A stretch of 64,000 bases of DNA from Yuukianura sp. NJ FZ-2021 (Eukaryota): NCBI GenBank assembly GCA_046563655.1, contig CM102289.1, positions 5,890,001-5,954,000 on the forward strand, written 5' to 3'. Position 1 is the stretch's first letter; each line of letters begins with the position of its first letter. Positions 8,223 through 47,914 of this stretch are shown in pieces. The notes under the pieces were generated by a model, which searched no databases, had not been told where the DNA came from, and was given only the letters and a program-made list of their open reading frames with translations. Made by a program: the position numbers and the translations under genes.

Positions 8223-10564
8223 TTAATCCTCGTCTTCGTCATCACCAGCATCGCCACCTTGTCCCTTCTTGGCATTCTTCCTCTTGACACGTCCAACGCG
8301 ACCGCCGCCAAACGGTGATTTCAGGGAGAAGTCAATGTGCTTCTGACTGTCGAGGCGGACAACAAATGATGGAATATTTACTACTTGCTTTCTTACTCTG
8401 AAAACACAAAACAAACAATGGAATTAGATCATTCTAATTCTAGTAATCCTAGTTGTTGCCATGTTCCAAGCCGATGAGTCGGAGTTGATACAAGGAATCA
8501 ACCCGTCACTTTGACAAGGAATAATTTAGCCTCTGTGATATGTATCTGCCTCAATGTTGTACCGGCAAATGCTCATCGCAACATCACATGGCAGACCATC
8601 TTATTAAATTAAATACTCAAACTCGTCGATAAGAATTTTTTCTCTTACCGAATGTGACGCTGACGGATAAGGACACGGGCATGGTGGATACTCTTGGCAA
8701 GCCCTAATTTGAAGACTTGTGTCTGGAGACGTCGTTCTAGAAAATCTTCAATTCGGAGACCGAGAACGTAATCCAGTTTCATCTTAGTTTCTTCCAAGAC
8801 ACCAACTCTGACAAGCCGACGAAGGAGAGCATTACCTGTAAAAATAGAACACAGTTTACATCCATTGCTTTGTATTGAAAATTACTCATTCTGCAGTAAG
8901 TCTTTGTCAAATGTGTAAAAAAATGAAATTTTTTGTGTTACCTGTATTTTTTGATCTTTTCCAAATTTTGGGGAAATGAAGTCTATACAAAAAGAAAAAT
9001 TTTGGTGAAAAATGTTTGACCTAACTCAACCCATTATGGAGATATCGAAGGTCAAAGCCGCCATTTTGGAAATATTGCGGCACGATTATCTCCGGAACGG
9101 CTCATCCGATTTAGGTCATCTTGGGCTCAAATGAAAGGGCTCGACATGCTCCAGACCTCATTTTTTTCTCAAAATTTTGACAAGGGCCCATGGGCCCTTA
9201 ATTGTTGAAAGTTTAATTAGTTGTGGACTTTCATCTCAGAATATTAATTTTCTCGTTAGAATTACATGGAATATTTACAGTAGACCAAAATGACCCTTAA
9301 GGGCCCACTAAAAATCTTAAGGGCCCCTACACAATTTTACCATATACTGCCAAATTACAATTAAACACGTTGTAATGTTTAAGTAAGCACATTTTGCAGA
9401 AATTTTATAGGGGGCCCTTAAGATTTTCAGTGGGCCCTTAAGGGTCATTTTGGTCTACTGTAAATATTCCATGTAATTCTAACGAGAAAATTAATATTCT
9501 GAGATGAAAGTCCACAACTAATTAAACTTTCAACAATTAAGGGCCCATGGGCCCTTGTCAAAATTTTGAGAAAAAAATGAGGTCTGGAGCATGTCGAGCC
9601 CTTTCATTTGAGCCCAAGATGACCTAAATCGGATGAGCCGTTCCGGAGATAATCGTGCCGCAATATTTCCAAAATGGCGGCTTTGACCTTCGATATCTCC
9701 ATAATGGGTTGAGTTAGGTCAAACATTTTTCACCAAAATTTTTCTTTTTGTATGGACTTCATTTCCCCAAAATTTGGAAAAGATCAAAAAATACAGGTAA
9801 CACAAAAAATTTCATTTTTTTACACATTTGACAAAGACTTACTGTCTGATGTGCACGATAGATTCATCAGTTGAATAAAAAAGTTCGAATCAAGGTATTG
9901 GCCTTCATACAAGAGGTGTCAAGTCAAATATTCATCATTTCTCTATCATTTGCATCAAAATTACATGTAATAAACTGCCATGTCAATACCAAAAAATTAC
10001 CTTCGAAAAGACGTTTAGGGTCCTTGTCATCAAGGGTGAGGAGTTCTCTGGCAGCTTTTCGGATTTTGGCCAAGGTGTACTTGACTCGCCACACCTCTCG
10101 CTTATTTCTTAGCCCATACTCTCCGATGATCTTCAACTCCTGATCGAGTCTGAAAACAAAAACAGTATTATTATTACCTCATGCTGGACGTAAGAAGTAA
10201 AATACAATTAAAAATTAAAGCATACGCCTGCGCAGATTAAGGTAAACTCGACTTGTCAATGGGATCACGTTCATGTCAATTTGTGTAAAACCATACCTTA
10301 TATATCGATTCCATTTCACTATGACTACATGTAATCATAAATACCTGTACTTTCAATCTACACCGGCATAGCTGCTGGCTTCCGGTCCGGCACACGCAGC
10401 CCATCCATCACCCATTACCAGACGCAGACCATACAAGGCTTTGACCGCAAATTTCAACTAATCCTGACACAATTACGGACTAATACTTACCGAGCCTTCT
10501 CAAAGGGTCTTCTGGGGGTGACATATGTCTTTCGGTTGACCTGTGGCACTCGATGGTTGACCAT
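8223..10564 (-). CDS. RpS9: 40S ribosomal protein S9 (uS4)
   Basis: Exons 10564-10491, 10149-10001, 8835-8649 and 8397-8223. Motifs [79 protein letters not shown]. Confidence 0.98.
8457..8597 (-). ncRNA. Structured intronic RNA element (H/ACA-like, or RpS9 splicing-regulatory structure)
   Basis: In the last RpS9 intron: stems TCTGCC/GGCAGA, ATGTTG/CAACAT and GTTGAT/ATCAAC, an ANANNA (ATATCA) and a terminal ACA. An alternative long-range pairing also exists (TGCCATGT/ACATGGCA, CGATGAG/CTCATCG). Confidence 0.4.
8894..9844. mobile_element. Foldback/MITE-like non-autonomous DNA element with ~435-bp inverted arms, in RpS9 intron 2
   Basis: 8894-~9328 is the reverse complement of ~9411-9844, with only about 2 mismatches seen. 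Termini CAGTAAG...CTTACTG. 4-bp direct repeat TCTG at 8890-8893 and 9845-9848. Confidence 0.93.
9857..9947 (-). ncRNA. Box C/D snoRNA, predicted guide for a 28S 2'-O-methyl-G (yeast Gm2791/snR48-equivalent site)
   Basis: Minus strand: C box ATGATGA (9938-9932), guide TGACACCTCTTG (9921-9910) complementary to LSU CAAGAGGUGUCA, D' ATGA (9908-9905), D box CTGA (9870-9867), terminal stem GATAGA/TCTATC. Intronic in a ribosomal protein gene. Confidence 0.85.
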
Positions 10565-11935
10565 TTTAATCGGTTACTTTAAATTCTCAATCCAATCCTA
10601 AATTAGAATGAAAGTGCACACCGATAAAACCTAAGCAGAGGGAGACCGACCATCCACACTGAGCCACACGGTGAATGCTTGAAACATACCGCTCGCAATT
10701 TCACTCGCTCTCACGACCAATCAGAGTCCTGCACAGCGCCAATGATAATTCATTCATTCTGTGAAAACTTGATTCATACCTAATACATCCAGTAATAACA
10801 AAAGTACTAATTAATTGAAAGTAATTACAGCACATGTGCATAAATTACTTATATGAATTACAAGAATTACGTTAATTATTTTAATCTGCAAAACACTTTA
10901 CGTTGTGTTAAGTTGTGTAGTTTATACAAGTGCATAACTCGCCCAGTAGAAAAAAAATTGGTTCTATGTTGGTCACTAGGTGACGCTACCCATCCGCGGT
11001 CAAAATCTAGAAGACGCCACAAAAATTGCTGAACCACTTCCATTGTCTTTTTCACTGAAAATTTTTCAGTAACTTCATGTTACATACAATAATAAATCAA
11101 TGATATATTATGCACTCTTATATCTTTGCAGATTATATTTGGAGTAAAATTATGCAAACACGCACCACCAGAAATCAACTAATCTCTAGTAAGCAACTGG
11201 TAGTTTACTAAAAACCTACTTAAAAACAAACCAGTCTTTTCTTTTTTCGTTTAAAATGGCAGAAGACTTACATCGCTTTTATGTTTGTAAAATTGTAATT
11301 TGAAAAATTTCGAAATCCAAAATCCTGTTTACTTATTTCTGCAGTTTACTTCTTGCTTTCGCCTTGCTTCTTTTTGGTCTTCTGGTCGATCAAAGAAGAA
11401 ATGGTTCGGTAAAAAAAATAAAGCGTTTCAACAATGAGTACTATTCTTCAATTTGCCAGTTTAATTTACCCGTAAATGAAGGGAATAAATACCAAAACTC
11501 TGCTTATAAAACTGTTCAAAGACTAGTTTTCACGTTTATAATTTAAATTGTAAATGAGTCCCTTCTAAACGGACGTGTAAAAAGTATTCCGCTTCTGTTT
11601 CCTGAACTTCACAAACTCAGATACATAGTATAATAGAGTAACAATAATTATTAACATTATCATAACTTAACACACTTAATTAGTAGTACAGAATAACTCT
11701 AACTCTGTTTTCTCTTCTTTTCTTTGCGCTTGAGTGAGATCAATTTAAACAAAGGGGGCACAAAATCTTCCCCGAATTTGGTTTCGTTAAGTCCACTAGA
11801 CGAATATTTTATACGTATAATAACCCGGGACATTTGTAAACTCCTAACTTTAAGTAATAACTGAATAGTGAAACCGAGAGGAATTGATTGTGATGATAAA
11901 TCAGTAGATTGTTTGGCCTTGAGTTTCCATTTCTA

Positions 11936-47037: not shown

Positions 47038-47914
47038 GGTTGGAGATCACTTTCGCAGTCTGTTTTTCTTAGTCGTTTTTTCGACTCGGACATGCTCCAT
47101 TACAACCGCCAAAATGACCTATGCCAAAGTTGTTCCTCTTGAAAAAATAAGCAACTTTTTTTAGTACCATTTTTTCGTGTGACCTTTCCTTGAGGTCACA
47201 GGTCAAGGTCAAACGGAATGTTTCCAGACAACCGACAAAATGGTCTCTACGAAAGTTGTTCCTCTCGTCAGAAGCTACAACTTTCACTAAGATCACTTTT
47301 TTCTGTGACCTTTTCTTCGGGTCAAAGGTCAAGGTCAACTAAGTATGCCCTGTCAATCGAAAAAATGACCTCTACAAAAGTTGTTGGCCTCGATGAGTAG
47401 ATCATTTTTTGTCCTATGACCTATGACCTTCTGACCCCTCCCTGAGGTGTTATCTCAAGTTGAAGGCGCATCTCCCAGATTCGGGGTTTTAAAAAACCTA
47501 ACTTATAGCCTCAGGGAGTCGTCACAGGGTCATAGATCATAGGACAAAAAATGATCGGCTCATTGAGCTGAACAACTTTTGTAGCGGTCATTTTTTCGAT
47601 TGTCAGGACATTCTTAGTTGACCTTGACCTTTGACCCGAAGAGTCACAGGAAAAAATGGTATTAATAAAAGTTGTAGCTTTTGGGGAGAGGGACAAGTTT
47701 TGTAGGGACCATTTTGTCGGTTGTCAGGGAACGCCCCTTTTGACCTTGACCTGTGACCTCAAGGAAAGGTCGCAAAGAAAAATGGTACTAAAAAAAGTTG
47801 CTTATCTTTTCAAGAGGAACAACTTTTGTATAGGTCATTTTGGCGGTTATCATGGAGCATGTCCATGTGAAAAAAACGACTAAGAAAAACAGACTGCGAA
47901 AGTGATCTCCAACC
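47038..47914. mobile_element. Mutator-like (MULE) foldback/non-autonomous element
   Basis: Long imperfect inverted arms from GGTTGGAGATCACTTTCGCAGTCTG to CAGACTGCGAAAGTGATCTCCAACC. Perfect 9-bp TSD CAAGCCAGC at 47029-47037 and 47915-47923. Confidence 0.92.

What the first reader, a model, noticed from the sequence alone, without database searches (positions are those of the whole stretch)
8836..9947. Self-folding insertion that may preserve snoRNA-to-splice-site geometry in RpS9 intron 2
Seen: a 951-bp foldback element (8894-9844, 4-bp TSD) lies only 12 bp 3' of the C/D snoRNA terminal stem, between the snoRNA and the 3' splice site at 8836. Removing the element plus one TSD puts the D box about 76 nt from the acceptor; with it the linear distance is about 1030 nt. 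Established: in vertebrates, intronic C/D snoRNAs are processed best about 70-80 nt upstream of the 3' splice site, although a terminal stem can compensate for poor position. Inference: because the insert can fold into one ~435-bp hairpin, it loops itself out and restores the effective spacing, which would make it a structurally silent insertion in an essential, highly expressed gene, with possible selection on arm complementarity.
Basis: partly seen in the sequence, partly recalled or inferred. Interest (0 to 1): 0.8.

Follow-up and report, generated by a model that had tools for sequence, protein, structure and literature searches.

The report
Young foldback transposon in RpS9 intron
A 951-base hairpin-shaped jumping element sits just downstream of a conserved small nucleolar RNA gene in an intron of the ribosomal protein S9 gene, but other samples lack it and its sister copies have equally matched arms, so it is likely an ordinary recent insertion and not a structure selected to protect the small RNA.

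Summary
The anatomy is confirmed. The element at 8894-9844 has 434-bp arms (2 mismatches), an 83-bp spacer and a 4-bp TSD. It lies between a C/D snoRNA (D box 9870-9867) and the acceptor at 8836: 1031 nt with the element, 76 nt without. The snoRNA is a credible snoR1-like guide: it pairs over 14 nt with the genome's own 28S, and the same guide sits in the same RpS9 intron of another animal, 102 nt from the exon. All 7 two-ended copies have 4-bp TSDs, 3 of the 6 others have arms as well matched or better, and differences between copies are mirrored in both arms. All 3 DNA runs laid (2 samples, 2 studies) carry the empty site, so the insertion is not fixed. The hairpin is predicted to form without disturbing the snoRNA stem, so passive looping-out is possible. 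It is untested (no carrier RNA) and may not be needed; the hairpin could also hinder 3' trimming. This is an ordinary recent non-autonomous foldback insertion of unresolved superfamily.

The parts
8894..9844 (.). Non-autonomous foldback-type DNA transposon, 951 bp, ends CAG...CTG; no stop-to-stop frame overlapping it exceeds 62 codons
   Evidence: relatives
9411..9844 (-). 5' arm on the transcript (434 bp); begins with a consensus donor hexamer GTAAGT at 9842-9837
8894..9327 (-). 3' arm on the transcript (434 bp; 2 mismatches to the 5' arm)
9328..9410 (.). 83-bp spacer (hairpin loop), identical to the spacer of the C6 copy
9845..9848 (-). TSD copy kept in the empty allele; part of the predicted outer snoRNA stem
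8890..8893 (-). Second TSD copy; supplies a CAG directly after the element
9862..9942 (-). Box C/D snoRNA, snoR1-like (clan CL00066): C box 9938-9932, guide 9922-9909, D' box 9908-9905, D box 9870-9867; ends approximate
9845..9959 (-). Predicted extended external stem: 9949-9942/9855-9862 (8 bp) and 9959-9953/9845-9851 (7 bp)
   Evidence: z -1.64
8836..10000 (-). Host intron (second CDS intron of RpS9), 1165 nt
   Evidence: same intron position in L112
8859..8889 (-). 31-nt flank differing from the empty allele of other samples by 5 substitutions and 1 indel; has two AG dinucleotides absent from the empty allele
   Evidence: table 5c compared by eye; AG positions
10001..10149 (-). RpS9 CDS exon upstream of the host intron
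8649..8835 (-). RpS9 CDS exon downstream of the host intron; single match in the assembly

Best explanation
This is a non-coding foldback-type DNA transposon that other samples lack at this site and that likely inserted recently, by chance, into the short gap between an intronic C/D snoRNA and the RpS9 acceptor; its matched arms are shared by sister copies and likely owe nothing to selection at this locus. A cut-and-paste transposase supplied in trans (inferred; none found) would have made the 4-bp TSD. The arms of each copy are likely homogenised against each other (inferred from mirrored differences). The pre-mRNA is predicted to fold into one ~434-bp hairpin. The allele is likely tolerated because the branch point and acceptor region stay downstream of the hairpin and the snoRNA keeps its own extended stem (inferred, not measured); its effect on snoRNA yield could be neutral or mildly harmful.
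For: All 7 two-ended copies examined have exact 4-bp TSDs, at different target sequences. Three full-length copies of this subfamily share an exact 18-nt terminus (6 hits, control 0) and are 92-98% identical to the query. Arm mismatches per 430 bp: 2 here; 1, 2, 2, 3, 5(+4 gaps), 12(+3 gaps) elsewhere. RpS9 vs C6 copy: 8 variable columns split by copy, 0 by arm, 3 singletons; the same pattern holds in all 6 pairs tested. Galileo shows the same pattern, >99% within copies and ~7% between (PMC2775673, passages). The empty site is in 3 of 3 DNA runs laid, from 2 samples and 2 studies, at about the depth of the flanks (X1 249 vs 249-252; X3 6.4; X4 69). The C6 copy also shows a clean empty site in X3 (skip 954, 4 letters shared, 138 letters on the short side). 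The L112 ortholog has the snoRNA 102 nt from the exon, with no such insertion in the printed intron.
Against: No autonomous partner was found, so transposition is inferred from TSDs, copies and empty sites. Only two samples were seen, as contigs, which drop rare variants, so allele frequency is unknown. The insertion sits in a single-copy essential gene beside what appears to be the only boxed copy of this guide (1 of 7 exact 13-mer matches), so survival may have been filtered by the hairpin's harmlessness; this cannot be excluded. More distant relatives have 93-96% arms, so arm identity does decay with age. Some sister copies also lie in or near genes (C7 copy in a short intron of a zinc-finger gene, C8b apparently between SprT-like exons), so they are not all 'untranscribed' controls.
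Confidence: 0.85

Rival explanations
1. Passive looping-out, without selection: the hairpin folds, brings the snoRNA back to about 80 nt of single-stranded path from the acceptor (22 + 58 nt), and so keeps splicing-coupled snoRNP assembly working. This is compatible with the best explanation and concerns the consequence only.
For: 433 of 434 arm pairs in the MFE; snoRNA stem unchanged; 22 and 58 nt. Yeast intron stems shorten effective splice-site distances (PMC12350175, passages). rRNA-guiding C/D snoRNAs tend to be near the branchpoint and AQR-bound (PMC10234308, passages).
Against: AQR binds 33-40 nt upstream of the branchpoint (PMC10234308); if the branch point is near 8855 (my guess, untested), that window falls on the TSD and the hairpin base. 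A terminal stem can compensate for position anyway (same paper), so looping need not matter. Before the 3' arm is made, the stem probability drops to 0.6 in two of four truncated folds. These rules come from mammals and are not shown for arthropods.
Confidence: 0.3
2. The insertion is mildly harmful. The 434-bp duplex would block 3'-to-5' trimming of the snoRNA precursor or attract dsRNA enzymes (editing, Dicer/Drosha), and its donor-like 5' end could divert splicing, lowering snoRNA or RpS9 output and keeping the allele rare.
For: The hairpin lies wholly 3' of the D box. The donor-like site at 9842 matches 7 of 11 consensus positions against 8 of 11 for the native donor, and 5 of its 6 positions are unpaired in folds of the first 590-700 nt. 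The allele is absent from both other samples. The exosome and dsRNA-enzyme reasoning is from my own knowledge.
Against: No expression data. Absence from two samples is also expected for a neutral young insertion. Once formed, the hairpin masks the donor (MFE).
Confidence: 0.3
3. Introner-like nested intron: the element carries a donor at its 5' end and takes a CAG acceptor from the TSD, so it would be spliced out first (net +3 nt), restoring a linear distance of about 79 nt without relying on the hairpin.
For: GTAAGT at 9842-9837 and CAG at 8893-8891. Introners with 4-bp TSDs that carry one site and co-opt the other are described (bioRxiv 10.1101/2022.06.06.494994, passages).
Against: The donor and the branch/pyrimidine region are paired in the predicted hairpin. 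An AG in the TSD occurs in 3 of 7 copies in one orientation, about what chance gives (my estimate ~0.3 per site). There is no RNA evidence, and the element lies inside an existing intron, not an exon.
Confidence: 0.06
4. One reading: arm complementarity at this locus is maintained by selection to preserve snoRNA-to-acceptor geometry.
For: Arms 432/434, in a single-copy essential gene next to a conserved snoRNA.
Against: 3 of 6 other copies have as few or fewer arm mismatches, and differences are mirrored family-wide. The site is empty in other samples. The spacer is identical to that of the C6 copy, which fits a young age.
Confidence: 0.03

Closest known systems
Foldback-type non-autonomous TIR transposons (Galileo/Newton copies of Drosophila buzzatii; PMC2775673, passages)
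   Same: Very long TIRs around a short middle, no coding capacity, TSD; arms >99% alike within a copy but several percent divergent between copies.
   Different: Galileo makes 7-bp TSDs and belongs to the P superfamily; here the TSD is 4 bp and the ends are CAG...CTG (GAG...CTC in a distant relative). No sequence comparison with Galileo was made.
4-bp-TSD superfamilies: Sola2 (PMC3627910, passage) and AcademX (PMC10045372, passage)
   Same: 4-bp TSD.
   Different: No transposase linked to these TIRs was found. The one DUF6589 hit in the genome (an Academ link that I recall, not checked) has no matching TIR nearby. The superfamily is unresolved.
snoR1 (RF00345, clan CL00066; SNORD60/yeast snR48 equivalence recalled)
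   Same: C, D' and D boxes; the conserved guide-plus-D' motif; 14-nt pairing to the genome's 28S just upstream of the conserved GAAAAGUUACC segment.
   Different: Scores 25 bits against a gathering score of 49; the 3' half is divergent; hosted in an RpS9 intron here and in L112, but in only 1 of 78 metagenome loci with this motif.
Yeast 'zipper' and 'downstream' intron stems (PMC12350175, passages)
   Same: An intronic stem that shortens the effective path between splicing signals.
   Different: Those are short, host-derived and partly tested by mutation. This is a 434-bp transposon duplex, not fixed and untested, and the proposed beneficiary is a snoRNA.
Introners (10.1101/2022.06.06.494994, passages)
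   Same: TIR element with a 4-bp TSD, carrying a donor and able to co-opt an acceptor from the TSD.
   Different: It sits inside an existing intron, both sites are paired in the predicted hairpin, and splicing is not shown.

Membership tests
Non-autonomous TIR (foldback-type) DNA transposon | Terminal inverted repeats | tested here: met
   434-bp arms, 432 identical
Non-autonomous TIR (foldback-type) DNA transposon | Target-site duplication of constant length | tested here: met
   Exact 4 bp in 7 of 7 two-ended copies examined
Non-autonomous TIR (foldback-type) DNA transposon | Dispersed copies and empty orthologous site | tested here: met
   empty site in 3 of 3 DNA runs laid
Non-autonomous TIR (foldback-type) DNA transposon | No coding capacity | tested here: met
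   Longest stop-to-stop frame 62 aa among 12 listed
MITE in the strict sense (iMITEdb definition, PMC5199201) | <800 bp and high copy number | tested here: not met
   951 bp; 3 copies of the subfamily found (a lower bound)
Galileo / P superfamily | 7-bp TSD | tested here: not met
   4-bp TSD against 7 bp in PMC2775673
Sola2 or AcademX | 4-bp (or 3-4-bp) TSD | tested here: met
   papers
Sola2 or AcademX | Autonomous partner with the superfamily's transposase and the same termini | tested here: inconclusive
   None found: (the two longer copies owe their length to other repeats in the spacer); no Sola profile was searched
Box C/D snoRNA (snoR1-like) | C box and D box with a terminal stem | tested here: met
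   fold z only -1.64
Box C/D snoRNA (snoR1-like) | 10-21-nt antisense element to rRNA upstream of D or D' | tested here: met
   14 nt (12 Watson-Crick + 2 G-U) to 28S in 3 of 3 own-genome copies fetched; no comparable target found for the D-box side
Box C/D snoRNA (snoR1-like) | Rfam gathering score | tested here: not met
   0 hits at gathering; snoR1 25.1 bits against 49, E 0.024
Box C/D snoRNA (snoR1-like) | Conservation at the orthologous position | tested here: met
   L112: same intron, 19-nt identical guide/D' block, C and D boxes
Box C/D snoRNA (snoR1-like) | Expression, fibrillarin binding, 28S methylation | not testable with these tools
   The only RNA run offered covers exons only, with many differences
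Introner | Splice sites at the element ends | tested here: inconclusive
   Donor hexamer and TSD-derived CAG present but paired in the predicted hairpin
Introner | Element forms a whole new intron in an exon | tested here: not met
   It lies within a pre-existing intron that L112 shares

The most novel reading that the evidence does not exclude
The unfixed foldback allele survives in a single-copy ribosomal protein gene because its 434-bp hairpin (or, less likely, its removal as a nested intron) folds the 1-kb insertion out of the way. The filled and empty alleles would then be a natural pair showing that the snoRNA-to-branchpoint rule is read as structural rather than linear distance in an arthropod, and that palindromic transposons are pre-adapted to be invisible to intronic snoRNA processing.
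Probability: 0.2. Interest if true: 0.5.

Novelty: new member of a known kind. Interest (0 to 1): 0.2.

Why it matters
As it stands, little: a young foldback insertion in an intron is common, and the snoRNA is a member of a known clan. The residual value is practical. An allele pair, with and without a 951-nt self-pairing insert, exists at a locus where a canonical rRNA-guiding C/D snoRNA sits at the textbook distance from the acceptor. It could test whether that spacing is linear or structural, and whether a long duplex blocks snoRNA 3' trimming, in a non-vertebrate. It also adds an unannotated RpS9-hosted snoRNA and an unclassified 4-bp-TSD foldback family.

Tried and rejected
Rfam at gathering threshold over the whole window: 0 hits. 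28S target by exact 13-mer: no rDNA hit among 7 matches, because the last pair is G-U; found through RF02543. Search for an autonomous partner: terminal pattern with 1 mismatch (20 hits), flanks of lone termini, DUF6589 (1 fragment, no matching TIR in the 30 kb around it), and the middles of the two longer copies, which proved to be other repeats. None was found. Assembly artefact rejected: TSD, a spacer identical to another copy, and sister copies with their own TSDs. The RNA run X6 (share 0.05) covers exons only with many differences, so it says nothing on splicing here. In one search the joints other than X3's have short sides (19-49 letters) beside a high-copy repeat and were not counted. 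A MAFFT alignment of the window intron with L112 misaligned and was dropped. Introns 1 and 3 showed no blastn match to L112 and no Rfam hit to E 10. Left out of the 7-copy count: the C2 copy (one end damaged; arms 3 mismatches in 537), the C1 single arm, and distant relatives L030-L038. The 31-nt divergent flank has no second match in the assembly. Four paper look-ups (three papers: AcademH, Hirose and Steitz 2001, the Sola description) were not held, so Sola and Academ termini rest on recall. One six-term literature search for a long inverted repeat or transposon insertion next to an intronic snoRNA returned 0 papers, and one on 'effective distance' returned 3 yeast papers; this does not show absence from print. 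Earlier-finding look-ups near the site, by words and by sequence returned nothing.

Full report
Observation. The window holds an RpS9 gene on the minus strand with CDS exons 10564-10491, 10149-10001, 8835-8649 and 8397-8223. Homologs carry PF00163 and several are named S9e; named near hits include two insects at 85-89%, so the host is likely an arthropod. The second CDS intron (10000-8836, 1165 nt) contains a 951-bp element at 8894-9844, with 434-bp arms and an 83-bp spacer. The arms differ at 2 positions. A 4-bp TSD flanks it. The D box (9870-9867) is 1031 nt from the next exon, or 76 nt without the element and one TSD.

The snoRNA. Rfam gives no hit at gathering. At relaxed threshold the 5' half matches snoR1 (RF00345, clan CL00066; 25.1 bits against 49; E 0.024). 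The guide before the D' box pairs over 14 nt (12 Watson-Crick, 2 G-U) with the 28S rRNA in 3 of the 3 own-genome copies fetched. The D'+5 rule (own knowledge) points to the G just after CAA in that site; equivalence with SNORD60/snR48 is recalled. A metagenome scan for C box + guide + D' returned 78 loci. One of them, L112, encodes RpS9 (92%, 97% and 78% identity on three exons) and has the snoRNA in the same intron, with its D box 102 nt from the exon and no insertion in the printed intron. Of 7 exact guide matches in the assembly, only this one has boxes (variants with a mismatch would be missed), and the RpS9 exon searched is single-copy. Folding predicts an 8-bp inner and a 7-bp outer external stem, the latter including the TSD copy. 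The fold is only modestly better than shuffles (z -1.64; 13 of 200). Expression was not testable.

The element. The genome has three full-length copies of this subfamily: here, C6 at 98% and C4 at 92%. There is also a ~75%-identical sister family, and more distant relatives, one with GAG...CTC ends; counts are lower bounds. All 7 two-ended copies examined have an exact 4-bp TSD at different target sequences. No frame overlapping the element exceeds 62 codons. No autonomous partner was found. A 4-bp TSD fits Sola2 (PMC3627910, passage) and AcademX (PMC10045372, passage), so the superfamily stays open.

Test of selection on the arms. Over the first 430 bp, arm mismatches are 2 in the RpS9 copy and 1, 2, 2, 3, 5(+4 gaps) and 12(+3 gaps) in the six others. 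Three of six are as good or better. Between the RpS9 and C6 copies, 8 variable columns are shared by both arms of one copy, none is shared by arm across copies, and 3 are singletons. All 6 pairs tested show this pattern. So the arms evolve in concert within each copy, as reported for Galileo (>99% within, ~7% between; PMC2775673, passages). On the other side, older relatives have 93-96% arms, and some sister copies also lie in or near genes, so they are imperfect controls for 'not transcribed'.

Test of age. Six public runs hold the region. I laid three DNA runs (X1 and X4 from one sample, X3 from another study) and one RNA run. All three DNA runs have a contig joining 8858 to 9845 with 30 letters between, at about the depth of the flanks. 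This is the empty site, with one TSD copy and a D-box distance of 75 nt. The contigs are ~99% identical to the window elsewhere, so they are likely the same species. The C6 copy also has a clean empty site in X3. Contigs drop rare variants, so frequency is unknown, but the insertion is not fixed. The window's 31 nt just 3' of the element differ from the empty allele by 5 substitutions and 1 indel (by eye). That is far above the ~0.3-0.5% seen in X3's flanks and unlikely even at 5% (P 0.004), although X1 shows a haplotype with 11 substitutions in ~210 nt in intron 1. The changes add two AGs upstream of the acceptor and do not look compensatory. Error-prone repair or an old divergent haplotype are guesses.

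How it would behave in the pre-mRNA (predicted). In the MFE of the intron, 433 of 434 arm pairs form, and the six core snoRNA stem pairs have probability >=0.99 with or without the element. The single-stranded path from D box to exon would be 22 + 58 nt, so looping-out is physically plausible. Three things weaken it as an explanation. Second, AQR binds 33-40 nt upstream of the branchpoint, which may fall on the hairpin base (branch point guessed). Third, the duplex lies in the path of 3' trimming and could attract dsRNA enzymes (own knowledge), and the element starts with a donor hexamer (7 of 11 consensus positions against 8 for the native donor) that is largely unpaired until the second arm is made. 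With the TSD's CAG, this also gives Introner-like geometry (10.1101/2022.06.06.494994, passages), but both sites are paired in the hairpin, an AG-bearing TSD is common by chance, and no RNA supports it. The one RNA run covers exons only with many differences.

Verdict. Shown: the anatomy, the family, the TSDs, the empty site, family-wide arm identity, and the snoRNA's boxes, target complement and conserved position. Inferred: recent transposition, arm homogenisation and tolerance. Untested: any effect on snoRNA or RpS9. It is an ordinary young foldback insertion, and selection on its arms is not supported. It is a new member of a known kind, interest 0.2, with residual value as a natural allele pair. 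All papers were seen as passages or search listings only and no supplements were read; Hirose and Steitz 2001 is known to me only through citing passages.

Noticed in passing
window 8859-8889: A cluster of 5 substitutions and 1 indel relative to the empty allele of both other samples, directly 3' of the insertion; it adds two AGs and a donor-like GTAATT upstream of the acceptor. Unexplained.
   Followed up: partly
window 9842-9837 and 8893-8891 (minus): The element's terminus carries a consensus donor hexamer in either orientation, and here the TSD supplies a CAG: a possible cryptic donor or nested intron.
   Followed up: partly
L010:1501-2715 (G000:C7:5873968-5875182): A 1215-bp sister-family foldback sits in what looks like a ~90-nt intron of a C2H2 zinc-finger gene, about 15 kb before the window start; its TSD also supplies an AG on the gene's strand.
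   Followed up: partly
L028:1443-3645 and L027:1286-3399: The two longer copies have other repeats inserted in their spacers; one ~850-bp insert has about 30 full-length copies in the genome.
   Followed up: partly
window 47038-47914: A second, older foldback-like element (arms ~410 bp, 88% alike), with no blastn match to this family.
   Followed up: no
window 8398-8648 and 10150-10490 (minus): The other two RpS9 CDS introns contain GC-richer, predicted structured stretches (intron 3 with an ACA triplet, H/ACA-like by eye); no Rfam hit and no match to L112.
   Followed up: partly
window ~10600-10690 (minus): A probable 5'-UTR intron upstream of the RpS9 start codon, which would change the intron numbering.
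   Followed up: no
window 10143-10352: Run X1 carries two intron-1 haplotypes, one with 11 substitutions and 11 gap letters in ~210 nt: high intronic polymorphism in this species.
   Followed up: no
L083 (metagenome): A snoR1-like snoRNA whose next exon looks like elongation factor 1-alpha (by eye), suggesting that this guide has different host genes in different lineages.
   Followed up: no
L133:4437-7033; L134:1950-2372; L135:6638-7751: Open frames resembling a Polinton-type DNA polymerase (by eye), a DUF6589 fragment, and an unrelated 1.1-kb foldback with CAC ends and a 5-bp TSD, near G000:C3:5.13-5.15 Mb.
   Followed up: no
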